From a virus, in the IMG/VR virus record IMGVR_UViG_3300045988_146774, positions 107,897 through 171,896 of that record: a stretch of 64,000 nt of DNA; one strand, 5' to 3'. The notes below the pieces were generated by a model that did not search any database, had not been told where the DNA came from, and saw nothing but the letters and a program-made list of their open reading frames with translations. The position numbers were made by a program, and so were the translations under genes. The stretch's first letter is position 1. Each line of letters opens with the position of its first letter. Shown piece after piece: positions 283 to 55,966 of this stretch.

Positions 283-537
283 CTATTGTACCCCCACAAA
301 CCACTTTGAAATGCGTCTTTCATACGAATTTAACGAATTTTCGACCCTCGAAAAAGCCCGCAAAATAGCGGTTTTTTGAAAACACGATAAAATGCCCATG
401 ATTGACTTTCCGTCAACAATATATCTTCCGACGCAATAATCAATATTTATGTCAGAAAACGTGTTTGAAATGTCTGCAAACTCTTTAATATCGTCTAAAG
501 TCGGTAATTTGATATTATATTCTCTAATTTGAATCAC
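283..537 (-). CDS. HPr-like (PTS phosphocarrier fold) small protein
   Basis: 84 aa. Core ..IDYCVGRYIVDGKSIMGILS.. resembles the HPr-family xDAKSIMGxxxL segment. Overlaps the ligase stop by 14 nt. Confidence 0.4.
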   Translation of the reverse strand: MIQIREYNIKLPTLDDIKEFADISNTFSDINIDYCVGRYIVDGKSIMGILSCFQKTAILRAFSRVENSLNSYERRISKWFVGVQ

Positions 538-2500
538 CTCCTAAATATTTTTCAATGAAATCATCTTCAGACAAGATTGGCACTCCTAAATTTTTTGCTT
601 TTTTATTTTTGGATGACGTTGATTCCGCATCGTTATTAATAAGTGCCGTCGTTTTTGAGCTGACTGATCCAGCAACCTTACCTCCAAGAGATTCGATTTT
701 CTCCTTTAGAGCATCACGGTTTTTAAATTTATTTAGTGAGCCAGTGATTACAAATGACATTCCGGATAGGCTTGTACCATTCTTCTTGTTGTTCTGCACA
801 TTAAACTTAAATTCCTGAGACAATTCCCACATTTCCTCATAATGTTTTTCGAAATAATCATCCAAAGATTTTACAAGTGAATCGTCAATACCAGAGATTC
901 TTTTGAAATATCTTGCATGATTTACAAGCATAATCTGAATAAACTTACCAATCATTCCGTCACATTCATTAGATATTGCCTTACTTGCTGCCTTACCAAC
1001 CATAGGAATAGAAAGGCTGCATAAAAATCTATCAAATGTTGTGTGTCTACTATCTTCAATTGATTTCATGAGCTTATTTACTGATTTCGTTCCGAATCCT
1101 TCAAGAACTGACATCTTTGATTTAAAATCACTAAGATGATAGATATCTTTGATTGAGCTTAACCAACCAAGATTAATGAATTTCTGAATTGTTGCTTTTG
1201 ATAACCCATCGAGATCAAGAGCATTTTTGCTAACCGCATGTGTAAGTTTCCCAAGAAGTTTGCCCTTACAATCTAGATTAGTACAGATAAGAACCTCTGA
1301 GTCATTCTCTTTTACTATTTTTGTTTCTCCTCCACAAACAGGGCATTTGTCCGGAATGGTAAAATTGCCAGACTTATCAATGCTGTCATGAACTTTTGGA
1401 ATGACCATATTTGATCTGTAGATTCTAATTCTATCGCCAATTCCTAACATCATATCCTTAATGTATGTAATATTATGAAGTGTGGCTCTTGTTGTAATAG
1501 CCCCAGACAAATTCACTGGATCAAAAATCGCAACTGGGTTAATAAGTCCTGTCTTAGAAGTATTCCATTCAATATCTCTAAGGGTTGTCTCAAATAATTC
1601 ATCTTCATATTTATATGCTATGGAATGACGGAAGAATGTTTCTGTGCGCCCCATAGACTCTGCAATTTTGTAATCATCGGTAGCCATTACTGCACCATCA
1701 TAAGGAATATTGTATTTATCAGCTGCTTCTCTTAAGCTTTCCAACATGTCTGGTAAATTCTCTCTGTCTTCAGAAGAGTTAGAATATGTATACATTGGAA
1801 CTATTTCAAATCCAAGTTCCTCTGCCCTTTTTAAATCTTTAAATACAGATTTATGTTCGAATCCTTTGATCACTCTCCATGCAATGAATCGCATATTCCT
1901 CTCAGCAGCTTCTGCGCTATCGAATAGCTGAAGCGAACCAGACACAAGATTTCTAGGATGCTTGTATTTTTTATCTTCTGGAAGAGGTTCGTTAATTTTT
2001 CTGAAAGAATCCCACCCAATAATTGTCTCTCCATCAATAATTAATTCATCTGTATAAGGAATAGTATGTGGAATATTCTTGATTGTAAGCACGTTTTGGA
2101 GGACATTAACACCTCGTACACCATCCCCCCTAGTTTCTGCACCGGTTAATTTACCATTAGAATAGTATAGAGAAGTGGTTAATCCATCACATTTTACAGA
2201 TAAAAAACAATTTCTATTTCCTGCGAAATCTCTAAGTTCATCTATACTCTTTGTTTTGTCCAACGAAAGCATTGGGTGATTATGTACAACCTCTTCTAAA
2301 TCTTCTGCTACAGTGTATCCAACATTTTGAGTTGGACTGTTATTGTAAATGATACCTGTTTGTTCTTCCAATGCTTTTAAGTCATCGTACATTTTATCCC
2401 ATTCGTAATCAGAGATGACTGGTTCAGAATTGTAATATGCCTCAGAAGCTTTGTTAAGAGTATCAATTAAATAATTGATTCTTTTAATATCTTTTGTCAT
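524..2500 (-). CDS. ligA: NAD-dependent DNA ligase
   Basis: 658 aa. Adenylation motif KxDG in SVKCDGLT, four-Cys Zn finger CPVCGG..CTNLDCKGK, C-terminal BRCT-like FVITGSL..LGGKV. Confidence 0.95.
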   Translation of the reverse strand: MTKDIKRINYLIDTLNKASEAYYNSEPVISDYEWDKMYDDLKALEEQTGIIYNNSPTQNVGYTVAEDLEEVVHNHPMLSLDKTKSIDELRDFAGNRNCFLSVKCDGLTTSLYYSNGKLTGAETRGDGVRGVNVLQNVLTIKNIPHTIPYTDELIIDGETIIGWDSFRKINEPLPEDKKYKHPRNLVSGSLQLFDSAEAAERNMRFIAWRVIKGFEHKSVFKDLKRAEELGFEIVPMYTYSNSSEDRENLPDMLESLREAADKYNIPYDGAVMATDDYKIAESMGRTETFFRHSIAYKYEDELFETTLRDIEWNTSKTGLINPVAIFDPVNLSGAITTRATLHNITYIKDMMLGIGDRIRIYRSNMVIPKVHDSIDKSGNFTIPDKCPVCGGETKIVKENDSEVLICTNLDCKGKLLGKLTHAVSKNALDLDGLSKATIQKFINLGWLSSIKDIYHLSDFKSKMSVLEGFGTKSVNKLMKSIEDSRHTTFDRFLCSLSIPMVGKAASKAISNECDGMIGKFIQIMLVNHARYFKRISGIDDSLVKSLDDYFEKHYEEMWELSQEFKFNVQNNKKNGTSLSGMSFVITGSLNKFKNRDALKEKIESLGGKVAGSVSSKTTALINNDAESTSSKNKKAKNLGVPILSEDDFIEKYLGGDSN

Positions 2501-31394: not shown

Positions 31395-32712
31395 CGTCTT
31401 CCTCCTGTGTAAATACACTAGAATAATTATCTATTCCCATATCTTTCAACCTTTTATAATGTGGAGCTTTTTTATTTCCGCTTTTAATCACATTGATTTT
31501 ATTTCCAAAATATAATGACCTACAATACCCTTGATATTCTTTTGGAACATTATCAGCTACCCAAATCATAAAAGCCTTTTTATTATCTAATGGGGCTTTA
31601 CTATAATATTCTCTAACTTGTTTCTCGGTTTTTTTGATATAATCTGTCACAATAGCAGCCACTCTTTTTACATTGTCGTGGTAAGCAATAGGAAGCTTTG
31701 AAAGTAAATCATCATATTTATCATCAGCAATAGAACGAATAATCAAATTAATAGAAGAAAGTTTAGATAACGCTTTATGTATATGCACATAATCGTTATA
31801 TTTCACCTTTGCTTTATAACCATCAATATTGATTACAAATCCTTCCGCTTCATCTGACGATTTATCATCCAACTCATTCATAACTTGATCCAATGTTTTA
31901 TCAAAAATATTCGTTGTTGGAATTCCATATATATTTGCTATTGTTATTACTGTATGATATGGTAATTCATTTCCAGTTTTATTAATCCTCATTCCAATTA
32001 AATATAATCCTTCTTGCTCTTTTTTATATTTAACTACATGAGCATCTTTTAGTGAAATATATTCAAATATAAAAGTAATACCAATGTGTTCTTTCAGCAT
32101 TTTTTCATAACCTGGCAATTTCATAATCATTCTATATCCGTCTTGCAATCTCCAAGAATTTTCAGGATTAATTGCTTGACTTCCAGCCATAATAATTTTG
32201 TTATCATACCATGTTGCTGACTGCATTGAACCATCTAACTTATTTGAGAATTCAATTGTGTATGCCTTTTCAATTCTGCTTTTTATATTCTCTAAACTTG
32301 TTTCTTCAAGTTCGTTAATATTAAAAAATTTACGAAATGGACATAACACAATACTATCTTTGAAAATATCAATTACAATACTTCTACATTCTCTGTAAAA
32401 CCCATTATATCTTTCCCACAAATCCTCCCCGGAGTTTTCTATTTCTCCGTCATAGATATTGCTATATCTACCATATCTTAAAAGAAGAAAATTCTTATAT
32501 TGATTAAGTTCTAAACAAGAAAGTAAATCTTTGTATTCAAAATATTTGTCGGAAAATTCGATGTTAGATAATTCTTCCACCCATCTTTCTAAACAAGTTT
32601 GTGATTCGTCCGTATAACCCTCTTTATAATCATACGTAACTATTCCGAATCTTTTTTTATATTCATTTTTTATTTCTATAAATTTATTTAATACAGGATT
32701 CCAACTTATCAT
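31387..32712 (-). CDS. ATP-dependent RNA ligase (Rnl-type nucleotidyltransferase)
   Basis: 441 aa. Motif I KxDG in FSNKLDGS, motif IV EGFVI, motif V KAKVK. Coupled to the kinase-HD gene. Confidence 0.7.
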   Translation of the reverse strand: MISWNPVLNKFIEIKNEYKKRFGIVTYDYKEGYTDESQTCLERWVEELSNIEFSDKYFEYKDLLSCLELNQYKNFLLLRYGRYSNIYDGEIENSGEDLWERYNGFYRECRSIVIDIFKDSIVLCPFRKFFNINELEETSLENIKSRIEKAYTIEFSNKLDGSMQSATWYDNKIIMAGSQAINPENSWRLQDGYRMIMKLPGYEKMLKEHIGITFIFEYISLKDAHVVKYKKEQEGLYLIGMRINKTGNELPYHTVITIANIYGIPTTNIFDKTLDQVMNELDDKSSDEAEGFVINIDGYKAKVKYNDYVHIHKALSKLSSINLIIRSIADDKYDDLLSKLPIAYHDNVKRVAAIVTDYIKKTEKQVREYYSKAPLDNKKAFMIWVADNVPKEYQGYCRSLYFGNKINVIKSGNKKAPHYKRLKDMGIDNYSSVFTQEEDDE

Positions 32713-33985: not shown

Positions 33986-34043
33986 TTATTTCACCACCTA
34001 ACCAGTTATATTTTTGTCATTTGTATCATCGCACTTATCACAT

Positions 34044-34116
34044 ACTATATATTGTGTTTATTATCATTTAAACAACAATATATAGTTATAATTTTCGAAT
34101 GAAACTCATATTTCAT
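34044..34116. promoter_or_regulatory. intergenic module A: ACTATATATTGT / ACAATATATAGT inverted repeat + ATGAAA..TTTCAT hairpin
   Basis: 12-nt perfect inverted repeat at 34044-34055 / 34075-34086. Hairpin arms at 34099-34104 / 34111-34116. Confidence 0.6.
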
Positions 34117-35436: not shown

Positions 35437-36312
35437 TTACGAATTAAAATATTTCACAATTTGATTACCAATCCATCTTCCCATAGGAACGGCAACGGCA
35501 TTTCCAATCTGTCTATATGCATCATTCTTTGTCCCACAGAATTCAAACCAATCAGGGAACCCTTGTAATCTCGCATACTCTCTAACTGTATATGGTCTTA
35601 TTCTCTTTCCGTCTTTTACAAGCCTTGTTCCTTTATCTTTTGCATAATGTGCTACACAAGTCGGAGATAAATCATCCATATCAGGATCAGATATAATCGG
35701 TTTATCTCTGTATTTACCATTAATTTTGTTATATACATATTGAGGGATATCTACTTCAGCATCTTTCTCAATAATATCTTTTAATCTTAATGGTTTCTCG
35801 TCTGGATAATCAAAATTAGTAAACGGTTTCTTACTACCAATCAAAATTAATCTTTTTCTTTCTTGTGGCAACCACATATTAGCATTTACAGGACATTCAA
35901 TTCGTACATAATAATCCGGAAGTTTTGTTAACGCTTCCATTACCACTTTGAACTTCAACATACCTGGTACGTTCTCTACAACATACATTTCAGGTTGAGC
36001 CAAAGCAATATGTCTAAAGAAATGTAAGAAAAGATCATCCCCAGTTCTTGTTCCACTAATATCTGCTGCCGTAGAATATTTTGTACATGGAAAAGTTCCA
36101 ATATAAACATCTGCGTCTTGCTGATCCAGCACGGTTATTTTTGTAATATCAGCTTCATTTACTTTATGATTAAAATTTTTTCTTAGTGTTTCACAACACT
36201 TTTTATCAATCTCATATGATTCCAAAATATTGATACCAGCTTCTTGAATTCCAAGATCCATTCCACCAGCACCACTAAAATAACTTTTAGCTGTTATTTC
36301 CATATTCTCCAA
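35437..36312 (-). CDS. dcm: DNA (cytosine-5)-methyltransferase
   Basis: 291 aa. Motif I FSGAGGMDLG, motif IV GTFPCTKYS, motif VI VVENVPG, motif X RQIGNAVAVP. Confidence 0.9.
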   Translation of the reverse strand: MENMEITAKSYFSGAGGMDLGIQEAGINILESYEIDKKCCETLRKNFNHKVNEADITKITVLDQQDADVYIGTFPCTKYSTAADISGTRTGDDLFLHFFRHIALAQPEMYVVENVPGMLKFKVVMEALTKLPDYYVRIECPVNANMWLPQERKRLILIGSKKPFTNFDYPDEKPLRLKDIIEKDAEVDIPQYVYNKINGKYRDKPIISDPDMDDLSPTCVAHYAKDKGTRLVKDGKRIRPYTVREYARLQGFPDWFEFCGTKNDAYRQIGNAVAVPMGRWIGNQIVKYFNS

Positions 36313-37180
36313 TTCCTTTCAAAATCCATTCAATAACTGGTTCTGTCCATCCATTTCCCATTAGGCTACATCTCTTTGAATACGGAAGATACCGACCATT
36401 TACTTTTACTTTTGTAAAGTTATCTGGCAACCCTTGTAGTCTTTCATATTCAATCTCTGTTAATTTTCTTGGTCTACCATGATCCATAACGGATTTTTCC
36501 TGATATCCACCATTCACGCAAGTTAAAGTACAGCACTTAAAATCTGGATTATAAATTCGTCTAAGCATTTCCATCGTATTAACCTTTAACTCTGCACAAA
36601 CACGTTTTTTCATATCAATGATTTCAAAATCTTTTTTATAGAAATATTTCTCATTTACATTATTCTCCATTACATCTTTCAAAACTAACGGAGATTCTTC
36701 CGGCAATTCACCAAGAGGAATGTTTGTCCAATAGTATCGTTCTCTCGACTGTGCGCCAAAAATCGCAGAGTCAATAAGTAAAGGGTCTACTCCAATACAC
36801 TCTGTCATTGTGTTTAAATCCTCTTCTCTACTCGGTATTACATTTTCAAACATGAAATATTTAGGCTGAATCGCCTTAAGACATTCGATAGCCTTAAAGA
36901 AAATACCTGATTTTCCTTCAAGCCCATTATTGACTTCTTTGCTTTCGATTCTACATCTGCTCAAACTTTGACAGCAGGTCGATACCAATAACAAGTCAAA
37001 TCCTTTGAATTGATCAAAATCCGCTTCGTATAAATCACCATGATGCACCACAAACGGAAAATGGTACTGAGAAACTGCGATAGCTTCTGGCAGAATCTCA
37101 TATGTATGATACTCTTTCACCGGTATACCCAATTGTTGTAATGCGTATAATCCAGTTTCTACTCCTCCACATAAACTCAA
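36287..37180 (-). CDS. DNA (cytosine-5)-methyltransferase, variant motif IV
   Basis: 297 aa from a TTG start. Motif I LSLCGGVETG, motif IV STCCQSLS (Cys in place of the usual Pro), FENV, QSRERYYW, GNGWT. Confidence 0.8.
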   Translation of the reverse strand: MSLCGGVETGLYALQQLGIPVKEYHTYEILPEAIAVSQYHFPFVVHHGDLYEADFDQFKGFDLLLVSTCCQSLSRCRIESKEVNNGLEGKSGIFFKAIECLKAIQPKYFMFENVIPSREEDLNTMTECIGVDPLLIDSAIFGAQSRERYYWTNIPLGELPEESPLVLKDVMENNVNEKYFYKKDFEIIDMKKRVCAELKVNTMEMLRRIYNPDFKCCTLTCVNGGYQEKSVMDHGRPRKLTEIEYERLQGLPDNFTKVKVNGRYLPYSKRCSLMGNGWTEPVIEWILKGIGEYGNNS

Positions 37181-47099: not shown

Positions 47100-47288
47100 T
47101 CAACTCAAATATTTTACCGTCAAATACAACAACACTAAAGTTATATATAGAGGACATGCAACATAATAGAATTTATATTCTGCATCTTTTTTCTTTGATA
47201 TAATTTCTGTTAGTCCTTCTATGAAATATATAATAGAAATCCCCATTGCCAAAGCTACTATTTGTTTTTCCATAATTACTCTCCGCAC
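47100..47288 (-). CDS. small membrane protein
   Basis: 62 aa. Two hydrophobic helices. First gene after module B. Confidence 0.55.
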   Translation of the reverse strand: MRRVIMEKQIVALAMGISIIYFIEGLTEIISKKKDAEYKFYYVACPLYITLVLLYLTVKYLS

Positions 47289-47362
47289 ACTATATATGGT
47301 ATGTTACAATGCAGTCACATGCTATATATAGTTATAAATTAACAATGAAATATCGGTTTCAT
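47289..47362. promoter_or_regulatory. intergenic module B: ACTATATAT / CTATATATAGT boxes + ATGAAA..TTTCAT hairpin
   Basis: Boxes at 47289-47297 and 47322-47332. Shares TATATATAGTTATAA with module A. Hairpin arms at 47345-47350 / 47357-47362. Confidence 0.55.
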
Positions 47363-48053: not shown

Positions 48054-48953
48054 TTATTCACCAACCTCCGATACAATTTTCTTAAACATATCATCCACGG
48101 AATCAAGTAAATCATATCTCTTATCAAATGGAGCCGTAGAACTTCTAGCGAATTTACGTTCAACCATATCTATATAATATGTAGAACTTCCGTCGTCTCC
48201 TTGATAAAATTCATTCCATTCTGAATCAGACAACAATCTCTTCACGTCGAGTTGCTCAATAGCAAGATTATCAAAACTAACAACTTTGAATTTATTCAAA
48301 ATATCCTGTAGATTTTCATATAACCATTGCTGATTTTCTTCTATTTCTTTTCTGTCAGAATCAAAATACTCATTACCTCGTCTCAAATGCTTATAGCCCA
48401 AAATGAGCATCTTTAAATTATTATTCTCCATAGCTTGTACATCAGATGGTTTCAGAACTCCATTAATTACATGAATTACAATATTGGGATATTTTTTGAC
48501 CTTTTTGATAAACTCTTGCGTTGGATTTACAAGAGATACACCTAGTCCATAAATAAGCTTTTCATTAATCATCTTATCTACCAAATCAATATTCTGTTCA
48601 AAATGCACCTGGTTAAGAGTAATATTTGTGATAACTTTTAAATCTCTGAGCTTTTCTAAGAATGGGATTAAATCAGGATGCTCAAGAACGTTACCTCCTC
48701 CGATTGCCACTTCTTGATATGGATGAAGTGTCTCGATAAATTTCTCGTTTAAGATATTTCCATGTTTGCCATTTTGTGTAGAACCTTCATGGCAAAACGG
48801 ACATCTCATTGAACAAGAATTGGTAATCTTAATATCCATATTTCTTGCAAAATCAAATTTAAATTCATCATCCTCTGTTTCACAAATGCGAGTACCGTCT
48901 GAAAATATTTTGTTAATCGTGTTTCCATTCTTGTACATGCCTAATAATTCCAT
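48054..48953 (-). CDS. radical SAM enzyme (unassigned subfamily)
   Basis: 299 aa. CxxxCxxC cluster SCSMRCPFC at residues 46-53. GGGNVLEHP SAM-binding-like motif. No C-terminal SPASM Cys cluster. Confidence 0.75.
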   Translation of the reverse strand: MELLGMYKNGNTINKIFSDGTRICETEDDEFKFDFARNMDIKITNSCSMRCPFCHEGSTQNGKHGNILNEKFIETLHPYQEVAIGGGNVLEHPDLIPFLEKLRDLKVITNITLNQVHFEQNIDLVDKMINEKLIYGLGVSLVNPTQEFIKKVKKYPNIVIHVINGVLKPSDVQAMENNNLKMLILGYKHLRRGNEYFDSDRKEIEENQQWLYENLQDILNKFKVVSFDNLAIEQLDVKRLLSDSEWNEFYQGDDGSSTYYIDMVERKFARSSTAPFDKRYDLLDSVDDMFKKIVSEVGE

Positions 48954-48979
48954 TCTAAAAATCCTCCATATTTTAAAAT

Positions 48980-49351
48980 TTAATCATGACCATAATATCC
49001 AAAAGCTACAATTCCTTCACCTTTTGGTGTAGTATAACTTTGTTCAAATGTTTCATACCAATTATCGTTGAAAAATTCTTCTGATGTTTTTATTCTTTCT
49101 TCTTCAAAAATACCATCTACTACTTCTTCGTCATTCCAATCGACATAAGGATACATAAGAGATCCATTCCATGACTTCTTTTCTTGCAGTTCTTTTATTA
49201 CTTCTTCTCTTGAAACAAATTTATCCTTGTCTTCCCAATAAAGCAGCTCTCCATTTTCCCATTTTTCATATTCATCAGAACTACACATTGTTAAACTATG
49301 TACCGAACTACTATTCGTTTCAAATACTCCACGTCTAATTTGTTTTTTCAT
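48980..49351 (-). CDS. ETNSSSxH-motif paralog 1 (shortest)
   Basis: 123 aa. N-terminus MKKQIRRGVFETNSSSVHSL shared with the two upstream genes. Confidence 0.7.
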   Translation of the reverse strand: MKKQIRRGVFETNSSSVHSLTMCSSDEYEKWENGELLYWEDKDKFVSREEVIKELQEKKSWNGSLMYPYVDWNDEEVVDGIFEEERIKTSEEFFNDNWYETFEQSYTTPKGEGIVAFGYYGHD

Positions 49352-49354
49352 ATG

Positions 49355-49933
49355 TTAATTTCCTTTCTCATAAATTTCGTATTTGTCAAATTCAGGTTTT
49401 AAATCACCATATAATGTATAAGTTCCCCAATCTGTTACTTCTTTGCCCTCTGCGATAAACATTTTATCTCTATATGAATCACCATTATCATTTCCTGTAA
49501 TAATAATCGAATTGCCAAAAAGATATCTAAACAACTTGTCTGAATCAGACAATAAATCATCTAACCAAGATTTTAATTCTCCTGCATGATCGATATAATC
49601 ATAACCAATGTCATAATAATAATGTTTTTCCTTACCATATTCATATGATTTAACATTTAATTCTGGGATTGTATATGTGATTTCATACTCATCTAGAATA
49701 TCTTTTAATCGAGTAAGTTTTTCATCAGCATATTCTTTGTCCATCGAAAGAATTGCTGTAATCAAATATGAAGCTTTATTATCAAGATCTCCATATTCTT
49801 CACATTCCCATCCATATTCTCCTGTATGAAAATCAATATGGTCTTTTAGTTCGTACCCATCTTTTGCAATACAAATTGCATGAGTACTGGACGAATTGGT
49901 TTCATAAACGCTTCTGCGGATTTGTCTTCTCAT
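49355..49933 (-). CDS. ETNSSSxH-motif paralog 2
   Basis: 192 aa. N-terminus MRRQIRRSVYETNSSSTHAI. Confidence 0.7.
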   Translation of the reverse strand: MRRQIRRSVYETNSSSTHAICIAKDGYELKDHIDFHTGEYGWECEEYGDLDNKASYLITAILSMDKEYADEKLTRLKDILDEYEITYTIPELNVKSYEYGKEKHYYYDIGYDYIDHAGELKSWLDDLLSDSDKLFRYLFGNSIIITGNDNGDSYRDKMFIAEGKEVTDWGTYTLYGDLKPEFDKYEIYEKGN

Positions 49934-49949
49934 ATTTATATTTCCTTTC

Positions 49950-50663
49950 TTAATCTACTGGATATTCATAATCGATTGCATCCATATCAATTAATCCTGT
50001 GTTTTTAATATCGTCCCAATAACAATATTCATCCCCATCTTGAATAACTACATATTTTCTATTCGTCAGATATTCTTCCAACGATACATTTTCTTCTTCA
50101 AGAAAACCACTAAGCATGTCTTCATCTACGCATCCTGTATATGGTTTATCAAAATGGAAATATCCATTATCTCCTTCCCAATATTCAATTGTATCAATTC
50201 CCCAATCTCTTTCTTTTTGTTCAAGCCACTCATTAAGCTCGTCTTCTGTCTTACCATATTCCTGAGCGTATTCACTATCTTTATTTGCCGGATGATCTTT
50301 ATCTGCAAACGAATCGGAAATCATAGGAATAACAATCCTTTTAAGACCTGGAACATATTTCAATGCAAGTGATTCAAGTTCTTTATATTTCTCATCATTG
50401 TATTCTCTAACTAACGAGGCACATGCATACAGCCATTTATCATGAAAATTGCCTAATGCTCTAAATGGACTTCTACCAAAATTCATATCATGATCCCAAA
50501 TATGCCACTCACAGTCTTTTTCTCCGGTATTTCTGTCATCCCACAAATAGAAATCTTTTAATATCTCTTCCGATGTGTAATGTTCGTCCTTTTTCATAAC
50601 ACAAAGAGAATGCTGACTGGAAGAATTTGTTTCAAAAACATTTGTTCTAATTTGTCTTTTCAT
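49950..50663 (-). CDS. ETNSSSxH-motif paralog 3
   Basis: ATG 50663 lies 9 nt after AAGGA, giving MKRQIRTNVFETNSSSQHSL, in register with the other two paralogs. Confidence 0.7.
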   Translation of the reverse strand: MKRQIRTNVFETNSSSQHSLCVMKKDEHYTSEEILKDFYLWDDRNTGEKDCEWHIWDHDMNFGRSPFRALGNFHDKWLYACASLVREYNDEKYKELESLALKYVPGLKRIVIPMISDSFADKDHPANKDSEYAQEYGKTEDELNEWLEQKERDWGIDTIEYWEGDNGYFHFDKPYTGCVDEDMLSGFLEEENVSLEEYLTNRKYVVIQDGDEYCYWDDIKNTGLIDMDAIDYEYPVD

Positions 50664-50691
50664 ATTCGTTAATCCTTTCTTTTTGTCACCC

Positions 50692-50768
50692 ATATATTGT
50701 ATGTGTCAATTAATCAAAATACAATATATAGTATTCATAAACAGATGAAATTTCGATTTCATCTGTTT
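50692..50768. promoter_or_regulatory. intergenic module C: ATATATTGTAT / ATACAATATAT inverted repeat + 13-bp hairpin (terminator-like)
   Basis: Inverted repeat at 50692-50702 / 50719-50729. Perfect stem AAACAGATGAAAT-ttcg-ATTTCATCTGTTT at 50739-50768, directly after the Nudix stop. Confidence 0.65.
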
Positions 50769-50778
50769 CTATTCTTTG

Positions 50779-51354
50779 CTATTCCCCATATATAATTTCC
50801 ATTAGCATAAGAGCTGTTTTCATGCATACTTTTTCTTCTTTTAGAATTCTCTTGATCTCATCTTTACCAGCTAATACGACATTAATCTCTTCTGTTAATT
50901 CGTTTTTGCCTGTACTCACCATTCCAGATATTTCTCCACAAATGATAGAACAACTTTCATCCGTCATTCCGGCTGAGGAATAGAATGCTTTGTTAGAAAA
51001 TTTTGTCTTCATTGGTACAAAATCCAATCCGGTTTCTTCTTTCATTTCTCTTATTGCTGTTTCATAAATATCTTCTCCATCATCAACAAGACCAGCCGGA
51101 AGTTCATAAAGATAATCTCCAATTGCATATCTGTATTGTTTAATCAATACGACCTTGCAATCTTCTGTAATTCCAACCATAGCCACCGCATCTGGCTTTT
51201 CTTCATGATTAATTGCTTTCAGATCATCAACCTGCTTTGCCCTAGAAGCCACTAGATATTCTAATGGCTTCCCTTCTTTATTCTCTGCATGTAATTTATA
51301 GAGGTTTAGAAATTTCTCATCTGTCATCTTCTCCACTGCACTAATCTTACCCAT
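50779..51354 (-). CDS. Nudix hydrolase, ADP-ribose pyrophosphatase-like
   Basis: 191 aa. Complete Nudix box G-x5-E-x7-REUxEExGU in GLVDDGEDIYETAIREMKEETGL. Size and layout resemble NudF-type ADPRases. Confidence 0.8.
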   Translation of the reverse strand: MGKISAVEKMTDEKFLNLYKLHAENKEGKPLEYLVASRAKQVDDLKAINHEEKPDAVAMVGITEDCKVVLIKQYRYAIGDYLYELPAGLVDDGEDIYETAIREMKEETGLDFVPMKTKFSNKAFYSSAGMTDESCSIICGEISGMVSTGKNELTEEINVVLAGKDEIKRILKEEKVCMKTALMLMEIIYGE

Positions 51355-51357
51355 AAT

Positions 51358-52095
51358 TTATTCTCCTGTGTATTCATAATGTTCCATCGGTTTCAATTTA
51401 AAAAGATTCTTCTCATGCATCTCATCAATCTTTCTCTTTACATTCTGATCATCGATTTCGCCTGTGCGAATATATTTATCAAGAACTTCATATGAAAAAC
51501 CAAAACTTTCCTCGTCTGTCTTGCCACACAATCCATCGATCGGAGTCTTATTTACAAATTCATCTGGAAGACCAAGTTCTTTTGCAACTGCTCTTACTTC
51601 TGTTTTTGTAAGCATTTCAATCGGAGCAAAAGACCCAAATCCATCGCCTCCATATGTTGCGAATCCGATATGATCTTCACTCAGATTACAGTTGCACGTC
51701 GGAATACCATTACAACACTGTGCATAAAAGAATAATTCTGACATTCTTACTCTTGCCGGTAAATTAATATTCGCCTGTTCTGTTTCTTCAATACCTTGTT
51801 TGGTATTTTCTTTTCTAAGAGTATCGACTGTATGTCCAATATTAACGATAGAATATCTAATTCCCAAATAATGAACTAAATTTAAGCTAACATTAATATC
51901 CGGCTGAATATGATAAGGCATTAACACTCCTCGCACCCTATCTTCACCAAGAGCTTTTACACATAATGCTGCTACTGTTGACGAATCGATGCCACCAGAA
52001 ATACCGATAACTGCATTCTGATTTCCGCCTAATTCATCAAAATATTTTTTAATCCACTCAACCAATTCTTCTGTAACTTTCTTAACGTCAAACAT
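51358..52095 (-). CDS. nadE: NH3-dependent NAD+ synthetase
   Basis: ATG 52095 lies 1 nt after the pncB stop. PP-loop IGISGGIDSS. About 245 aa, i.e. the short ammonia-dependent form without a glutaminase domain. Confidence 0.85.
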   Translation of the reverse strand: MFDVKKVTEELVEWIKKYFDELGGNQNAVIGISGGIDSSTVAALCVKALGEDRVRGVLMPYHIQPDINVSLNLVHYLGIRYSIVNIGHTVDTLRKENTKQGIEETEQANINLPARVRMSELFFYAQCCNGIPTCNCNLSEDHIGFATYGGDGFGSFAPIEMLTKTEVRAVAKELGLPDEFVNKTPIDGLCGKTDEESFGFSYEVLDKYIRTGEIDDQNVKRKIDEMHEKNLFKLKPMEHYEYTGE

Positions 52096-52096
52096 A

Positions 52097-53326
52097 TTAC
52101 ACACCAGCCTTTCTTTCGTGTTCCATTCTCCAGTCAATACATCTCTGTACATAATCTACATATTCCGGATTTTTACACATGCCTTTTCCAACTGTATCAC
52201 TAATTTTAACTGCATCTTGTCCATTAATTGCAGTTACTTTCATAACAATATTTAATGGCTCTACACAAGTATCGTTAGACAAATATGTTCCAATTCCAAA
52301 TGCCACATCTGCACGATCTGAAAAATGTCTAAAAATCTTATCAGCTATTTCGAAATTAAGCGAATCGGAGAAAAGTAAGGTCTTCGTTTTGCTGTCAACT
52401 CCAAGACTTTCATAATGTTTAAGCATCTGTTCTCCCCATTCAATCGGGTCGCCAGAATCATGTCTTACACCGGAGAACAATGTGGCGAATGTTAACTGAA
52501 AATCTTTTAAGAAACAATTTGTAGTAATCGTATCTGTAAGAGCAATTCCATTGAGCACTCCATACTCTTTAACCCATGCGTTGAGTGCATACCAGTTAGA
52601 ATATGCCGGATTGTGCTTATGATTGCCTTGACCTACGCACATAATCCATTCATGTGCCATAGTTCCTACAGGTGTTACTCCATACTTTTTAGCAAGATAT
52701 ACATTAGAAGTTCCAATAAATTTCGATGCACAATGCGATGTATCATTTAAATGTGAAAATTTCTCAACTACAAGTTCCTGAGCTTCTGCTGACAGTCTTC
52801 TTCTTAGACCAAATTCTGAAAATGTACCTGCGTACCAGTGTCCTTTCTTTAGCATATCGTATTTATAATCAAGTTTTTCTCTAAAACTTTCGATCAATTT
52901 GTCATAATCATACTGCATTCTAAAATACACTTCGTTCACTATTGCAAGAACCGGAATCTCATACATGGATGTGTTAAGCCAAGTTCCTTTCGTTTCAATA
53001 GATAGTCCGCATTCCGTATTTGTTCCGATATCAAAATCTTCATAGCGTGGTTGCCACAATCTTAGAAAATCTACGTAAGATCCTTTAATCCATTTGATAC
53101 TGTCAATATATTCCAGCTCATCTTCTGTGAATCTAAGACCACAATACGTCTTAATCTGCTCTTTAATTTCATTCACCATTTCTTCTGTAAAATGCACGTC
53201 TTTATTTCTGCATTTAAAAGTCCATGTTGTTTTATAATCCGAAAACTGATGGTAAATTGCCTGTCCCATACTCAGTTTATAAAGATCTGTACTTAACAAG
53301 CTTGTAATAATCTGATGTAATTTCAT
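52097..53326 (-). CDS. pncB: nicotinate phosphoribosyltransferase
   Basis: 409 aa. Aligns by eye along its length with E. coli PncB (TDLYKLSMGQA, FGLRRR, GTSN, GTMAHEW, GIALTD, RHDSGDP, LNIVMK). Confidence 0.85.
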   Translation of the reverse strand: MKLHQIITSLLSTDLYKLSMGQAIYHQFSDYKTTWTFKCRNKDVHFTEEMVNEIKEQIKTYCGLRFTEDELEYIDSIKWIKGSYVDFLRLWQPRYEDFDIGTNTECGLSIETKGTWLNTSMYEIPVLAIVNEVYFRMQYDYDKLIESFREKLDYKYDMLKKGHWYAGTFSEFGLRRRLSAEAQELVVEKFSHLNDTSHCASKFIGTSNVYLAKKYGVTPVGTMAHEWIMCVGQGNHKHNPAYSNWYALNAWVKEYGVLNGIALTDTITTNCFLKDFQLTFATLFSGVRHDSGDPIEWGEQMLKHYESLGVDSKTKTLLFSDSLNFEIADKIFRHFSDRADVAFGIGTYLSNDTCVEPLNIVMKVTAINGQDAVKISDTVGKGMCKNPEYVDYVQRCIDWRMEHERKAGV

Positions 53327-53341
53327 AATAAAAATCTCCTT

Positions 53342-53854
53342 TTATAGAATCTTCTTTTCATATAAATATTCTCTGAATAACGGATGAATCATATCTTCGT
53401 ATTTCTTAGGATTTTTTCTAATCTCCGTTCCTGATATATCAATGTTCTCTCTATCCAACAATTCAAAAATATGTTTCGGATATAAACATCGAATCTTAGA
53501 AAAATAACTTGACTCTCCAGAATACCATGTAATGTTATTCGTCTTCACATAAGGGTTGATTCCGGCATTAACAAATAATTCTGTACACCACCAACGCCAA
53601 TTTTCCAATGTAAATGTCCCATCTAATCCTATTTTCTTATCATCTATAACAACAACTTTCACATTTTCCTTCGTATAAAGCATTTTCATTAACTGGATTC
53701 TTTTACGAAAATAGATAAAATCCTTTCCACGATCGTTATCAAATCCACACACTCCAATAATTGTGAGCTGATTTTCTTTTATAGATCGATCAATCATTGA
53801 AAGATGACCTTTATGCAATGGAATAAAACATCCAAAAGTGATACCAATATTCAT
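53342..53854 (-). CDS. nicotinamide/nicotinate mononucleotide adenylyltransferase (cytidylyltransferase-fold)
   Basis: 170 aa. (H/T)xGH motif GCFIPLHKGH near the N-terminus, ISxTxxR motif ISGTEIR near the C-terminus. Confidence 0.75.
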   Translation of the reverse strand: MNIGITFGCFIPLHKGHLSMIDRSIKENQLTIIGVCGFDNDRGKDFIYFRKRIQLMKMLYTKENVKVVVIDDKKIGLDGTFTLENWRWWCTELFVNAGINPYVKTNNITWYSGESSYFSKIRCLYPKHIFELLDRENIDISGTEIRKNPKKYEDMIHPLFREYLYEKKIL

Positions 53855-53857
53855 TTG

Positions 53858-54370
53858 TTACTCTCCAATTACATTAATCTGACAACTCTTCATTACTTCT
53901 AATGCAGCCTTGTGTTTTTCAGGAGTGACACCTGCACAACAACTTGCGTCTACTGTAATATCAATGTTAGGATAATTTGCTCTAATAATAAGCGCATTTG
54001 AAATTACACAAATATCCGTACAAAGACCACAAATTTCTACACTTTCGAATGCAAAATCTTTCCAATTTTTCCATCCAAAAGTAAACTTGTCAATTAAAAT
54101 ATCATTATTAATATCAAAATTTAATTCATTTGAAATTTGCCAACCAATAGTATCTTTTACACAATGTACAACAGGAAGGTGTATACCTTCATATGTTTCT
54201 AAATAATTATTAGAATGTGTATCTCTAGTAAAAATTACTTGTTTACCAGCTTCCTTATATTTTTTAATCTTTTCTGCCACGTTTGATACAATTGCCTGTG
54301 CTTCTTTTGTTCCAAGAGAGCCATTAATAAAATCATTTTGCATATCAACTACAATTAAAATTTCTTCCAT
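53858..54370 (-). CDS. pncA: nicotinamidase (isochorismatase family)
   Basis: ATG 54370 (TAATG overlap with the upstream stop). ILIVVDMQNDF, catalytic-Cys context CGLCTDICV. Confidence 0.75.
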   Translation of the reverse strand: MEEILIVVDMQNDFINGSLGTKEAQAIVSNVAEKIKKYKEAGKQVIFTRDTHSNNYLETYEGIHLPVVHCVKDTIGWQISNELNFDINNDILIDKFTFGWKNWKDFAFESVEICGLCTDICVISNALIIRANYPNIDITVDASCCAGVTPEKHKAALEVMKSCQINVIGE

Positions 54371-54645
54371 TACTTCCACCCATATTCTTTCTTAATCTGC
54401 TTGAATTTTTTCGTAAATAACTTTAATTCTTTATATGTAAGTCTCGCTGGTTCCTTTAATGACAATGACGATCCTTGGATAACTGAATATGCGGTAAATT
54501 GATTATGAAATATTTCTATCACTTTATATTTAACATAACTGCAAGTTATTGATACTTTTGTATAAATAACTCCACGATCATCTTTTTTGTCAAACAACCA
54601 TCCGGCTTCTTTAATTTCTCTATCTAAATTTCTATTCCATATCAT
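54370..54645 (-). CDS. hypothetical protein coupled to pncA
   Basis: 91 aa from the ATG at 54645 (the track start 54669 is a TTG). Its stop overlaps the pncA start. Confidence 0.5.
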   Translation of the reverse strand: MIWNRNLDREIKEAGWLFDKKDDRGVIYTKVSITCSYVKYKVIEIFHNQFTAYSVIQGSSLSLKEPARLTYKELKLFTKKFKQIKKEYGWK

Positions 54646-54805
54646 CTTTATCACCGCCAAATCCAACAAAATTTGTTAATGTGATCAACCCTGGAATCAA
54701 TAATACCCATGCATTATCGGCATTTTGATTAATAATCATTGATTCAATTACTACAAGCGCAGTACAAATCCATGCAGAAATCAAAACCTTATTAGAATCT
54801 TTCAT
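54632..54805 (-). CDS. small membrane protein (57 aa, below ORF-track cutoff)
   Basis: Hand translation MKDSNKVLISAWICTALVVIESMIINQNADNAWVLLIPGLITLTNFVGFGGDKDDME. GAGGTGAG upstream. Confidence 0.4.
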   Translation of the reverse strand: MKDSNKVLISAWICTALVVIESMIINQNADNAWVLLIPGLITLTNFVGFGGDKDDME

Positions 54806-54825: not shown

Positions 54826-54854
54826 ATATGGCGATCATTTTCAGACCGCCATAT
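54826..54854. promoter_or_regulatory. hairpin ATATGGCG-(13)-CGCCATAT between the 334-aa gene and the NAD block
   Basis: 8-bp perfect stem at 54826-54833 / 54847-54854. Only a weak U tract follows on the minus strand. Confidence 0.35.
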
Positions 54855-54862
54855 ATTGTGCA

Positions 54863-55893: not shown

Positions 55894-55966
55894 ACTATAT
55901 ATTGTATTTTATATTTTATTCACCACTATATATCGATTTATTTTGCCGTTGAAACATGCTTTTCAT
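55894..55966. promoter_or_regulatory. intergenic module D: two ACTATATAT boxes + TGAAA..TTTCA hairpin
   Basis: ACTATATATTGT at 55894-55905 (identical to module A), ACTATATAT at 55925-55933, hairpin at 55950-55965. Confidence 0.55.

What the first reader, a model, noticed from the sequence alone, without database searches (positions are those of the whole stretch)
50779..54645. Five-gene, translationally coupled Preiss-Handler NAD+ rebuilding operon (PncA - NMN/NaMN adenylyltransferase - PncB - NadE - Nudix) in a phage gene block: candidate counter-defence against NAD+-depleting immunity
**Seen.** Five consecutive minus-strand genes are separated by 1-15 nt (or a TAATG overlap) and carry diagnostic motifs:
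- nicotinamidase: VVDMQNDF, CGLCTDICV
- adenylyltransferase: GCFIPLHKGH, ISGTEIR
- PncB: full-length resemblance to E. coli PncB
- ammonia-type NadE: ISGGIDSS
- Nudix: a complete Nudix box

The block is bracketed by intergenic modules D (55894) and C (50692, a 13-bp hairpin right after the Nudix stop), so it looks like one transcription unit.

**Established.** PncA, PncB, NaMN adenylyltransferase and NadE together convert nicotinamide to NAD+. Nicotinamide and ADP-ribose are the products left by TIR/SIR2 NADase effectors (Thoeris, DSR, some CBASS/Pycsar/Ago systems).

**Inference.** The phage carries a complete four-step route from the NADase waste product back to NAD+, plus an ADPR-cleaving enzyme. 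To my knowledge, the phage NAD+ reconstitution routes described so far use either an ADPR-pyrophosphate route or a Nampt + Nmnat route. A PncA/PncB/NadE deamidated route would be a third architecture.
Basis: partly seen in the sequence, partly recalled or inferred. Interest (0 to 1): 0.85.

Follow-up and report, generated by a model that had tools for sequence, protein, structure and literature searches.

The report
Phage-borne nicotinamide-to-NAD+ salvage operon
A large gut phage carries a working-looking four-enzyme operon, copied from its likely Lachnospiraceae hosts, that should turn nicotinamide back into NAD+; in sister phages the same genomic slot holds a proven anti-immunity NAD+-rebuilding pathway, so this is probably a new version of a known phage trick.

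Summary
Window 50779-54370 (minus strand) encodes PncA, a stand-alone NadR-type adenylyltransferase, PncB, ammonia-type NadE and an ADP-ribose-pyrophosphatase-like Nudix. The gaps are 3, 15, 1 and 3 nt, and the catalytic motifs are intact. The DNA is phage: unidirectional genes, a phage replication module, and IMG/VR relatives.

Three corrections:
- The TAATG overlap joins PncA to an unnamed 91-aa backbone ORF.
- The four-enzyme core is a host-type operon. Butyrivibrio chromosomes carry NrtR-PncA-NMNAT-PncB-NadE in the same order.
- The Nudix has a separate history. It is more divergent, and one relative has it without the cassette.

The "third architecture" claim is dated. NARP3 (PnuC+NadR) was published in 2026, and Preiss-Handler clusters (pncB-nadD-nadE) in gut jumbo phages were reported in silico in 2024.

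New here: in sibling phages, homologous PncA and NadE bracket alternative middles. These are DUF5662-PncB-NadD, or a NARP1-like pair (a PRPS-like protein plus a Namat homologue, E 1.7e-114 to SPbetaL1 Namat) followed by Macro and NADAR proteins. That positional equivalence favours a counter-defence role, which remains untested. The order of the last two steps (NaAD or NMN intermediate) is unresolved.

Verdict: new variant of a known kind; moderate interest.

The parts
53858..54370 (-). PncA-type nicotinamidase (170 aa). Predicted step: nicotinamide -> nicotinate + NH3.
   Evidence: PF00857, E 2e-28. Best solved relative is P. horikoshii PncA 1ilw, E 6.5e-17. Catalytic D9, K95 and C121 and the nicotinamidase metal site D50/H52/H69 are present. 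dN/dS against L001/L002 is 0.14-0.18.
53342..53854 (-). Stand-alone NadR-type nucleotide adenylyltransferase (170 aa), with no HTH and no RNK domain. Predicted step: adenylylates NaMN or NMN.
   Evidence: PF01467. TIGR01526 nadR_NMN_Atrans, E 2.4e-18. phrog_3462 NMNAT, E 1.6e-21. PDB 6gye NadR, E 1.2e-19. The AF2 model (pLDDT 92.4) matches the NadR NMNAT domain best (TMq 0.74-0.77, 30% identity), while NadD ranks only 28th. Motifs H14-x-G-H17 and ISGTEIR 140-146 are invariant in 27 homologues.
52097..53326 (-). PncB nicotinate phosphoribosyltransferase (409 aa). Predicted step: nicotinate + PRPP (+ATP) -> NaMN.
   Evidence: NF003704, 470.7 bits (cut-off 379); TIGR01514, 406.6 bits (cut-off 269.55). 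PDB 1yir, E 7e-91. GTMAHEW with His225, RHDSGD and GIGT are conserved. It is 74-83% identical to chromosomal PncB of Lachnospiraceae.
51358..52095 (-). Single-domain, ammonia-type NadE (245 aa). Predicted step: amidates NaAD to NAD+, or NaMN to NMN.
   Evidence: PF02540, E 2e-48. TIGR00552, 165.9 bits (cut-off 63.65). PDB 2e18, E 1e-36; 3fiu (Francisella enzyme) is third. PP-loop SGGIDS at residues 33-38; no glutaminase domain. It belongs to a divergent 'IPTCNCN...TYGGDGFGSFAP' subtype that is also found in bacteria.
50779..51354 (-). NudF/NUDT5-like Nudix hydrolase (191 aa). Probably an ADP-ribose or ADP-sugar pyrophosphatase. Last gene of the run, but with its own evolutionary history.
   Evidence: PF00293. 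Best solved relatives are all ADPR pyrophosphatases. The AF2 model (pLDDT 84) gives a top 50 in Foldseek PDB made up entirely of ADPR/ADP-sugar pyrophosphatases. The Nudix box is complete in 19/19 phage homologues; the signature Pro is replaced by Ala. It occurs without the cassette in L167.
54370..54645 (-). Unnamed 91-aa ORF whose stop overlaps the PncA start (TAATG). A backbone gene, not part of the NAD cassette.
   Evidence: No Pfam, NCBIfam or PHROG match. Present in close relatives L171-L173 that lack the NAD genes at this position. Only 63-69% identical where the flanking genes are 88-99% identical.
54632..54805 (-). 57-aa hydrophobic small ORF; its end overlaps the start of the 91-aa ORF. 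A backbone gene that is probably co-transcribed.
   Evidence: Conserved at 88-96% in L001, L002 and L171-L173. No family match.
50739..50768 (.). 13-bp perfect hairpin 11 nt after the Nudix stop; candidate end of the transcription unit.
   Evidence: I25. The U-tract on the coding strand is weak.
54849..54861 (-). Copy (2 mismatches) of the intergenic motif ATACAATATATRG; candidate promoter element upstream of the small ORFs and the NAD genes.
   Evidence: Exact copies lie at 55895-55907 and 50690-50702. Enrichment is only modest (20 matches against 10.7 expected at up to 2 mismatches).
524..2500 (-). NAD+-dependent DNA ligase of the same phage: an NAD+ consumer and the basis of the rival 'own-demand' explanation.
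   Evidence: phrog_3869, E 7e-173. A 97% identical copy is present both in a relative with the cassette and in one without it at the island.

Best explanation
Window 54370-51358 is an accessory, horizontally exchanged cassette in a large gut phage (related contigs are about 90-200 kb) that probably infects Lachnospiraceae. It encodes a host-derived, deamidated (Preiss-Handler-type) salvage route.

**Predicted route**
1. PncA deamidates nicotinamide to nicotinate.
2. PncB joins nicotinate to PRPP to give NaMN.
3. The stand-alone NadR-type adenylyltransferase and the ammonia-dependent NadE complete NAD+.

The last two steps run either as NaMN -> NaAD -> NAD+ (canonical order, slightly favoured) or as NaMN -> NMN -> NAD+ (Francisella-like order).

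The adjacent Nudix is a separate backbone gene of the ADP-ribose-pyrophosphatase type. It would split ADP-ribose into AMP and ribose-5-phosphate, which can feed PRPP synthesis.

**Proposed role**
The genes are tightly packed and probably co-transcribed. They would raise flux from nicotinamide to NAD+ in the infected cell. The most likely selective benefit is to restore NAD+ when TIR/SIR2-type NADase defences cleave it. A secondary benefit is to supply the phage's own NAD+-dependent ligase.

**Shown:** gene identities, intact motifs, purifying selection, phage context, host origin, cassette swapping, and positional equivalence to NARP1-like genes.
**Inferred:** enzyme activities, order of steps, co-transcription, and any effect on defence.
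For: **Enzyme identities and motifs:**

**Purifying selection:** dN/dS is 0.05-0.29 for all five genes.

**Phage context:**

**Host origin**
- PncB is 74-83% identical to Lachnospiraceae PncB.
- The same gene order occurs in four Butyrivibrio loci. One is next to NrtR and Rnf genes.
- NMNAT-PncB-NadE lies next to BioY/BirA in a Butyrivibrio MAG.

**Accessory nature**
- Closest relatives L171-L173 (backbone 96-98% identical) carry three unrelated small genes at the same junction.
- The four-gene core is 96-99% nt identical to L001/L002, whereas the flanks are 86-93%.

**Counter-defence**
- In 23 of 80 sibling loci, PncA is followed by a PRPS-like protein and a Namat homologue, usually plus Macro, NADAR and NadE. 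The Namat homologue scores E 1.7e-114 to SPbetaL1 Namat 9W5X, against about 1e-55 to human Nampt.
- L180 and L186 are collinear at the DNA level through PncA (90.5%) and NadE (85%). They differ only in the middle: NARP1-like versus DUF5662-PncB-NadD.
- No fetched locus has both PncB and Namat.
- NARP1, NARP2 and NARP3 are experimentally shown counter-defences (10.1101/2024.02.11.579819; PMC13464706).
Against: - No experiment exists for this route. Li et al. 2024 only predicted it.
- The likely hosts already have the same pathway, so the phage copy may simply boost supply.
- The phage encodes an NAD+-dependent ligase. A related phage-like contig has a PARP-domain protein next to the cassette. 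Own demand for NAD+ is therefore a sufficient rationale.
- The route costs PRPP and several ATP and has four steps. It is slower than NARP1.
- NadR-type adenylyltransferases are, from my recollection of the E. coli and Haemophilus literature, NMN-preferring. No sequence feature found here shows NaMN use or NMN-synthetase activity of NadE.
- The Nudix lacks the ADPRase signature proline and falls below every NCBIfam cut-off.
- Positional equivalence is suggestive, not proof. PncA and NadE also accompany the NARP1-like genes, which is unexplained.
Confidence: 0.6

Rival explanations
1. General auxiliary metabolic cassette. The phage raises NAD+ supply for its own NAD+-dependent DNA ligase and for host metabolism during replication, independent of any NADase defence.
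For: - An NAD+-dependent ligase lies in the same window.
- Li et al. 2024 report that more than 50% of NAD-jumbo phages carry such ligases.
- NARP2 raises NAD+ even without a defence system.
- The cassette is a plain copy of a host housekeeping operon.
- A PARP-domain gene sits near the cassette in L161.
Against: - A near-identical relative keeps the ligase (97%) but lacks the cassette at this island. The cassette is therefore not needed for the ligase.
- The same slot holds NARP1-like genes plus Macro and NADAR, which are typical of NAD+/ADP-ribose conflict systems.
- NARP1 uses ADP-ribose and nicotinamide, the NADase products, and does not overproduce NAD+ without a defence system.
Confidence: 0.3
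2. Francisella-like order of the last two steps. NadE acts as an NMN synthetase (NaMN -> NMN) and the NadR-type enzyme then adenylylates NMN, because NadR-type enzymes prefer NMN.
For: - The adenylyltransferase is NadR-type, not NadD.
- De Ingeniis 2012 (PMC3376133) states that in F. tularensis replacement of NadD by NadM goes with a NadE adapted to NMN synthesis.
- F. tularensis NadE (3fiu) is the third-best solved relative.
- L045/L070 pair a Nudix-NrtR-NMNAT fusion with PncA-PncB-NadE.
Against: - At the positions I recalled as specificity determinants of the Francisella enzyme, all phage NadEs read G/Q/K (rarely F or A at the first position), whether the partner is NadD or NadR-type. There is no covariation.
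- The window's NadE subtype also occurs in a NadD-linked phage locus, L030.
- Archaeal NadM is bifunctional for NMN and NaMN, and M. jannaschii NadE is a plain NAD synthetase. An NMN-type fold therefore does not force this order.
Confidence: 0.3
3. The block is ordinary bacterial chromosome, or a mis-binned or chimeric assembly, rather than phage DNA.
For: PncB is 74-83% identical to Lachnospiraceae chromosomal genes, and the gene order matches Butyrivibrio operons.
Against: - The flanks are phage genes on both sides and all lie on one strand: phrog_1735 protein, replication module, tail fibre, RNA ligase.
- At least 150 IMG/VR contigs carry a PncB relative.
- The cassette has the same junctions in independent contigs L001 and L002.
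- The bacterial loci have quite different flanks (Rnf, BioY, BirA) and an NrtR regulator that is absent here.
Confidence: 0.03
4. The Nudix does not serve NAD+ recycling. It is a backbone enzyme with another job, for example degrading ADP-ribose-derived immune signals or other nucleotide-diphosphate compounds.
For: - It occurs without the cassette in L167/L168, with conserved downstream synteny.
- It is more diverged than the core.
- The signature Pro is replaced by Ala, and it falls below family cut-offs.
- Phages are known to degrade ADPR-based signals (PMC13232231).
Against: - It follows NadE directly in two different phage contexts: the window lineage and 14-15 PncB-NadE-Nudix-Macro loci.
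- Fold and sequence point to ADPR/ADP-sugar pyrophosphatases.
- NadM-type phage enzymes fuse the same activity to NMNAT.
Confidence: 0.3

Closest known systems
Chromosomal NrtR-PncA-NMNAT-PncB-NadE salvage operon of Butyrivibrio (Lachnospiraceae)
   Same: Same four enzyme families in the same order, including the unusual 170-aa stand-alone NadR-type adenylyltransferase. PncB is 77% identical, PncA about 50%, NadE 47%.
   Different: The bacterial operon sits among housekeeping genes and is preceded by an NrtR-like Nudix regulator. The phage copy has no regulator, is followed by an active-looking Nudix hydrolase, and lies in a swappable phage island. The adenylyltransferase is only 25-32% identical to those in the four Butyrivibrio loci. 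A Butyrivibrio MAG homologue is 54% identical.
Phage Preiss-Handler gene clusters (pncB-nadD-nadE) in gut jumbo phages, Li et al. 2024 (PMC11662467)
   Same: A phage-encoded deamidated NAD+ route with clustered genes. A counter-defence role was proposed but not tested.
   Different: Here NadD is replaced by a NadR-type enzyme. PncA (the entry step from nicotinamide) and a Nudix are in the run. The phage is not shown to be a jumbo phage (related contigs about 90-200 kb), and its likely host is Lachnospiraceae rather than Bacteroidota.
NARP2 (Nampt + NMNAT/Nudix of Vibrio phage KVP40; Osterman et al. 2024)
   Same: Starts from nicotinamide, consumes PRPP and ATP, uses classical salvage chemistry, and has a Nudix ADPRase-type module associated.
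   Different: NARP2 is a two-step amidated route through NMN using Nampt. The window has NAPRTase (PncB) plus nicotinamidase and NadE, giving four steps. Its adenylyltransferase is NadR-type and is not fused to the Nudix.
NARP1 (Adps + Namat)
   Same: Occupies the equivalent position between homologous PncA and NadE genes in sibling phages. It also uses nicotinamide.
   Different: The chemistry is different (ADPR -> ADPR-PP -> NAD+). No Adps or Namat is present in the window.
NARP3 (PnuC + bifunctional NadR; PMC13464706)
   Same: A NadR-family adenylyltransferase fold. There is a weak sequence match to Bas30_86 (9x6f, E 8e-4).
   Different: There is no PnuC transporter and no ribosylnicotinamide kinase domain. 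The precursor is nicotinamide, not imported nicotinamide riboside.
Francisella tularensis NadE* (NMN synthetase) + NadM route
   Same: An NMN-type adenylyltransferase together with a short single-domain NadE and an ADPRase-type Nudix.
   Different: The adenylyltransferase is NadR-type rather than NadM-type and is unfused. There is no evidence that this NadE prefers NaMN.

Membership tests
Nicotinamidase (PncA, isochorismatase-like hydrolase) | Asp-Lys-Cys catalytic triad | tested here: met
   D9, K95 and C121 were found by motif and by alignment to P. horikoshii PncA. The Lys placement rests on the strand-end 'IDK' motif, because phmmer put a gap nearby.
Nicotinamidase (PncA, isochorismatase-like hydrolase) | Metal site Asp-x-His ... 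His-Cys-Val, which separates nicotinamidases from other isochorismatase-fold enzymes | tested here: met
   TRD50-T-H52 and H69-C-V align with D52/H54/H71 of 1ilw.
Nicotinamidase (PncA, isochorismatase-like hydrolase) | Score above the NCBIfam equivalog cut-off (PRK11609) | tested here: not met
   35.9 bits against a cut-off of 174. That model is built on the longer enterobacterial type. Pfam PF00857 is met (100 bits against 27).
Nicotinate phosphoribosyltransferase (PncB) | Score above the curated cut-offs of NF003704 and TIGR01514 | tested here: met
   470.7 bits against 379, and 406.6 against 269.55.
Nicotinate phosphoribosyltransferase (PncB) | Conserved autophosphorylated His in GTxAHE, and the PRPP-binding motifs | tested here: met
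   GTMAH225EW, RHDSGD and GIGT are present and conserved in 84/84 phage and 81/81 bacterial homologues. The residue's role is taken from my knowledge of Salmonella PncB.
NH3-dependent NAD+ synthetase (NadE) | PP-loop SGGxDS; single synthetase domain without a glutaminase domain; score above the TIGR00552 cut-off | tested here: met
   SGGIDS at residues 33-38; 245 aa; 165.9 bits against 63.65.
NH3-dependent NAD+ synthetase (NadE) | Substrate is NaAD rather than NaMN | tested here: inconclusive
   The residue comparison with the F. tularensis enzyme did not discriminate. Kinetics are needed.
NadR-type NMN adenylyltransferase | HxGH and ISxTxxR nucleotidyltransferase motifs, and a fold closest to the NadR NMNAT domain | tested here: met
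   H14-K-G-H17 and ISGTEIR. Foldseek's top six hits are L. lactis NadR, TMq 0.71-0.77.
NadR-type NMN adenylyltransferase | Full NadR architecture (NMNAT + ribosylnicotinamide kinase, with or without an HTH) | tested here: not met
   Only 170 aa, matching residues 15-179 of 6gye. TIGR01526 scores 66.5 bits against 341.15. It is a domain-only relative, not a NadR.
NadD (NaMN adenylyltransferase) | Match to NadD models or structures better than to other adenylyltransferases | tested here: not met
   NadD models score only 16-24 bits, far below their cut-offs. B. subtilis NadD ranks 28th in the fold search. The majority phage lineage has a separate NadD-like gene instead.
ADP-ribose pyrophosphatase (NudF/NUDT5 subfamily of Nudix) | Complete Nudix box and the ADPRase-type fold, including the N-terminal beta domain | tested here: met
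   The box is complete. All of the top 50 Foldseek matches are ADPR/ADP-sugar pyrophosphatases aligned over the full length.
ADP-ribose pyrophosphatase (NudF/NUDT5 subfamily of Nudix) | Signature proline about 15-16 residues after the Nudix box (rule recalled from Dunn et al. 1999), and a score above family cut-offs | tested here: not met
   The aligned position is Ala ('YSSAGMTDE' against 'TSPGFADE') in all 19 phage homologues. NudE scores 47.5 bits against 169, and TIGR00052 scores 39 against 79.55.
NARP1 | Adps (PRPS-like) plus Namat | tested here: not met
   No hit to the sibling-phage Adps-like or Namat-like proteins anywhere in the 64-kb window.
NARP2 | Nampt plus NMNAT | tested here: not met
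   The phosphoribosyltransferase is NAPRTase by curated cut-offs, not Nampt. An NMNAT-type enzyme is present.
NARP3 | PnuC transporter plus bifunctional NadR | tested here: not met
   No PnuC match among the flanking ORFs that were scanned, and the 57-aa hydrophobic ORF has no family match. The RNK domain is absent.
Any NAD+ reconstitution counter-defence pathway | Restores NAD+ and phage plating in cells with an NADase defence | not testable with these tools
   This requires the experiments listed under next steps.

The most novel reading that the evidence does not exclude
The PncA...NadE locus of this gut-phage family is a modular NAD+-reconstitution hot spot. A deamidated Preiss-Handler cassette (PncB with NadD, or with a stand-alone NadR-type adenylyltransferase as in the window) is functionally interchangeable with NARP1. 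On this reading the window's operon is a fourth, mechanistically distinct counter-defence pathway that starts from the NADase product nicotinamide. It would require either a NadR-type enzyme that accepts NaMN or a Francisella-like NMN-synthetase step.
Probability: 0.4. Interest if true: 0.7.

Novelty: new variant of a known kind. Interest (0 to 1): 0.55.

Why it matters
NAD+ depletion is a common end-point of bacterial immunity (Thoeris, DSR, SIR2-HerA and others). Phages that rebuild NAD+ escape many such systems at once. The three pathways proven so far use other chemistry.

If this route works, it would show that phages can simply borrow the host's own nicotinamide-recycling operon for the same purpose. 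It would also extend the phenomenon to abundant phages of the human gut Firmicutes.

The alternative cassettes found between the same two flanking genes give a natural experiment. They also give a ready set of constructs for testing which NAD+ routes can substitute for each other.

In addition, the stand-alone NadR-type adenylyltransferase embedded in a nicotinate pathway is an uncharacterised enzyme class in bacteria as well as phages.

Tried and rejected
1. **DNA similarity to GenBank phages.** Only short 67-80% matches to unannotated human faecal phage records, so no annotation could be borrowed.
2. **NadE specificity by sequence.** I compared three positions recalled from the F. tularensis NMN synthetase work with phage and bacterial NadEs, sorted by partner adenylyltransferase. 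There was no covariation, so this is not informative. The original paper (PMC2651253) is not held.
3. **Possible loss of NadE function.** The K->Y and D->S changes in the 'TKxGDGxxD' region looked suspicious. The same subtype occurs in a bacterial Lachnospiraceae locus and in a NadD-linked phage locus, and H. pylori NadE has Leu at the Lys position. I therefore reject it as evidence of inactivation.
4. **Riboswitch or other RNA element around the operon.** No Rfam match at E <= 1.
5. **Counting '41 of 80 sibling loci without NAD genes' as absence.** Rejected, because at least one such contig has PncB 20 kb from the anchor. Only the synteny-defined replacements (L171-L173, L180 against L186) are used.
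6. **Supplementary tables of Li et al. 2024**, to see whether pncA-containing clusters were tabulated. They are not held.
7. **Nudix as a degenerate NrtR.** Rejected: there is no significant similarity to Butyrivibrio NrtR, and the catalytic box is complete.
8. **Sigma-70 promoter scan.** Fewer hits than in shuffled sequence, so it is uninformative.

Full report
**1. What is in the sequence**

All long ORFs of the window but one lie on the minus strand. Between 54805 and 50779 there are seven tightly packed genes:
- a 57-aa hydrophobic ORF, 54805-54632;
- a 91-aa ORF, 54645-54370;
- PncA, 54370-53858;
- a 170-aa adenylyltransferase, 53854-53342;
- PncB, 53326-52097;
- NadE, 52095-51358;
- a Nudix protein, 51354-50779.

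The gaps between the five enzyme genes are 3, 15, 1 and 3 nt. AGGAG-like ribosome-binding sites are clear upstream of NMNAT, PncB and Nudix and weaker before PncA and NadE. A perfect 13-bp hairpin follows the Nudix stop, but it has no clear U-tract on the coding strand. Its description is otherwise accurate.

**2. Enzyme identities**

- **PncA.** It matches the isochorismatase domain (E 2e-28) and P. horikoshii nicotinamidase (E 6.5e-17). It keeps D9, K95 and C121. It also keeps the nicotinamidase-specific metal ligands D50, H52 and H69.
- **PncB.** It passes two curated NCBIfam cut-offs (470.7 against 379; 406.6 against 269.55). It matches P. aeruginosa PncB at E 7e-91, with His225 in GTMAHEW.
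- **NadE.** It is a single-domain enzyme above the TIGR00552 cut-off, with the PP-loop SGGIDS.
- **Adenylyltransferase.** It is not NadD. Its best relatives by sequence and by predicted structure are the NMNAT domain of NadR (6gye, E 1e-19; model pLDDT 92.4; TMq 0.74-0.77). It lacks the kinase domain.
- **Nudix.** It has a complete Nudix box, and its model (pLDDT 84) matches only ADP-ribose/ADP-sugar pyrophosphatases in the top 50. However, the signature proline is replaced by alanine, and it is below all NCBIfam cut-offs.

dN/dS against two close relatives is 0.05-0.29 for all five genes.

**3. Phage or host?**

The window holds a phage-type replication module, an RNA ligase, a polynucleotide-kinase-like protein, DNA methyltransferases, a tail-fibre protein and a large protein of a phage-only family (phrog_1735, E 3e-263). 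At least 150 IMG/VR contigs encode a relative of this PncB. The best 80, which were fetched, are at least 80% identical and are mostly contigs of 90-200 kb. Two of them carry the whole block. The block is phage DNA.

**4. Origin of the cassette**

The phage PncB is 74-83% identical to PncB of Lachnospiraceae and other Clostridia.
- In 60 of 80 bacterial loci PncA lies directly upstream, and in about 26 NadE follows.
- Four Butyrivibrio loci have PncA, a 170-aa NadR-type adenylyltransferase, PncB and NadE in exactly the window's order.
- In B. hungatei this run is preceded by an NrtR-like regulator and Rnf genes, so it is chromosomal.
- A Butyrivibrio MAG has NMNAT-PncB-NadE next to BioY and BirA.

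The four-gene core is therefore a host-type salvage operon captured by phages, and the likely host group is Lachnospiraceae (inference).

**5. The cassette is accessory and modular**

- The closest relatives by backbone genes (L171-L173, 96-98% identical) keep the 57-aa and 91-aa ORFs.
- Exactly at the 91-aa stop / next-gene start junction they carry three unrelated small genes. Synteny resumes at window position 48051.
- Window 54370-48054 is therefore a swappable island, and the two small ORFs are backbone genes.
- Against L001/L002 the four-gene core is 96-99% identical in DNA. The flanking 57-aa ORF (90-92%) and the Nudix (86-93%) are more diverged.
- In L167 the Nudix occurs with the window's downstream genes but without PncA-NadE.
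- The Nudix nevertheless follows NadE directly in a second phage lineage, which reads PncB-NadE-Nudix-Macro in 14 loci.

**6. Alternative cassettes at the same locus**

Most related phages read PncA - DUF5662 - PncB - NadD-like - NadE.

In 23 of 80 loci anchored on the neighbouring backbone gene, the run after PncA instead contains:
- a PRPS-like 278-aa protein;
- a 500-aa protein that matches SPbetaL1 Namat, the second enzyme of NARP1, at E 1.7e-114, against about 1e-55 for human Nampt;
- in most of these loci, a Macro-domain protein, a NADAR-domain protein and NadE as well.

L180 and L186 are collinear in DNA through PncA (90.5%) and NadE (85%), and they differ only in the middle. No fetched locus has both PncB and Namat. 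The window's arrangement (NadR-type enzyme + PncB) is a third allele. A fourth, in L045/L070, pairs a Nudix-NrtR-NMNAT fusion with PncA-PncB-NadE. A phage-like 223-kb contig has the window's four-gene order next to a PARP-domain gene.

**7. Mechanism**

- *Established biochemistry:* PncA, PncB, an adenylyltransferase and NadE convert nicotinamide to NAD+.
- *Inferred:* the phage proteins are active.
- *Unresolved:* whether the NadR-type enzyme adenylylates NaMN (canonical order), or whether NadE first makes NMN as in Francisella (PMC3376133).

The residue comparison was uninformative. Because the same NadE types occur with NadD partners, I slightly favour the canonical order.

The Nudix probably turns ADP-ribose into AMP and ribose-5-phosphate, a PRPP precursor. 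This is by analogy with NadM/NatV-type phage enzymes.

**8. Purpose**

The counter-defence reading rests on four points:
- the precedent of NARP1-3;
- the use of nicotinamide, which is the NADase product;
- the accessory nature of the cassette;
- its positional equivalence to NARP1-like genes accompanied by Macro and NADAR, which are domains of NAD+/ADP-ribose conflicts.

The main rival is supply for the phage's own NAD+-dependent ligase. That rival is weakened because a relative with a 97% identical ligase lacks the cassette at this island. Neither reading has been tested.

**9. Novelty**

- The survey of 21,191 viral proteomes by Iyer et al. 2022 names only NadV, NadM and NadR as the principal phage NAD+-synthesis enzymes.
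- Li et al. 2024 reported pncB-nadD-nadE clusters in gut jumbo phages and suggested counter-defence, without experiments.
- NARP3 is PnuC+NadR.
- I found no paper on a validated deamidated route and no 'NARP4'.

The window is thus a new variant of a known kind. The variant features are the nicotinamidase entry step, the NadR-type adenylyltransferase in place of NadD, and the neighbouring ADPRase-like Nudix. The allelic relation to NARP1 appears not to have been described in the papers I could search.

Noticed in passing
L180:16542-20966 (and 22 further loci among L171-L250): Sibling phages carry PncA, a PRPS-like (Adps-like) protein, a Namat homologue, a Macro protein, a NADAR protein and NadE. 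It is unexplained why a NARP1-like pair should be bracketed by a nicotinamidase, which would compete for nicotinamide, and an NAD synthetase.
   Followed up: partly
window 48054-54370, compared with L171:13271-14512 and L172:14098-15337: The whole 6.3-kb stretch is replaced in near-identical relatives by three small genes of unknown function (106-120, 189 and 101 aa; no Pfam match). The stretch holds the NAD genes, the Nudix, three paralogous small genes and a radical-SAM protein. The break lies exactly at the shared 'GWK*/MEVM' stop-start junction.
   Followed up: partly
window 54370-54645 (-): The 91-aa ORF upstream of PncA is only 63-69% identical among relatives whose neighbouring genes are 88-99% identical. 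It evolves fast, has no family match, and is translationally coupled to whatever cassette follows it.
   Followed up: partly
window 48980-50693 (-): Three tandem genes (247, 192 and 123 aa) share a conserved N-terminus (RQIRxxVxETNSSSxH), seen as direct repeats at 49313-49368, 49895-49950 and 50625-50680. They are followed by a radical-SAM protein (48054-48953). Their function is unknown, and they travel with the Nudix in L167.
   Followed up: no
L003-L079 (58 loci), for example L039:5445-5999: A DUF5662 protein (about 184 aa, His-rich) is conserved between PncA and PncB in the majority phage lineage. It is an uncharacterised gene embedded in the NAD operon. Some loci also insert a radical-SAM-like gene or an AP2-domain (homing-endonuclease-like) gene.
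   Followed up: no
L045 and L070, for example L070:3930-5384: A 484-aa fusion of a Nudix domain, an NrtR winged-helix domain and an NMNAT-type adenylyltransferase lies directly upstream of PncA-PncB-NadE in another phage lineage.
   Followed up: no
L161:12020-12561: A PARP-catalytic-domain (plus faint WGR) protein lies a few genes downstream of a PncA-NMNAT-PncB-NadE cassette on a 223-kb phage-like contig. An adenylosuccinate synthetase gene lies upstream.
   Followed up: no
window 524-2500, 7498-8310, 30504-32712, 35437-37180 (all -): Other auxiliary genes in the window: an NAD+-dependent DNA ligase, a FolD-like dehydrogenase/cyclohydrolase, a polynucleotide-kinase-like protein next to an RNA ligase (a possible tRNA-repair pair), and two adjacent DNA methyltransferases.
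   Followed up: no
window 55895-55907, 54849-54861, 50690-50734, 47287-47331, 34042-34085: A partly palindromic AT-rich motif (ATACAATATATRG) recurs, mostly in intergenic gaps of the minus-strand gene array. It may be a phage promoter or regulatory site. Enrichment over shuffles is only about two-fold.
   Followed up: partly
L167:829-2626: A relative with the Nudix but no NAD cassette carries an integrase, an HTH repressor-like gene and a PemK toxin nearby, on a 580-kb contig. This hints that some family members may be integrated or temperate.
   Followed up: no
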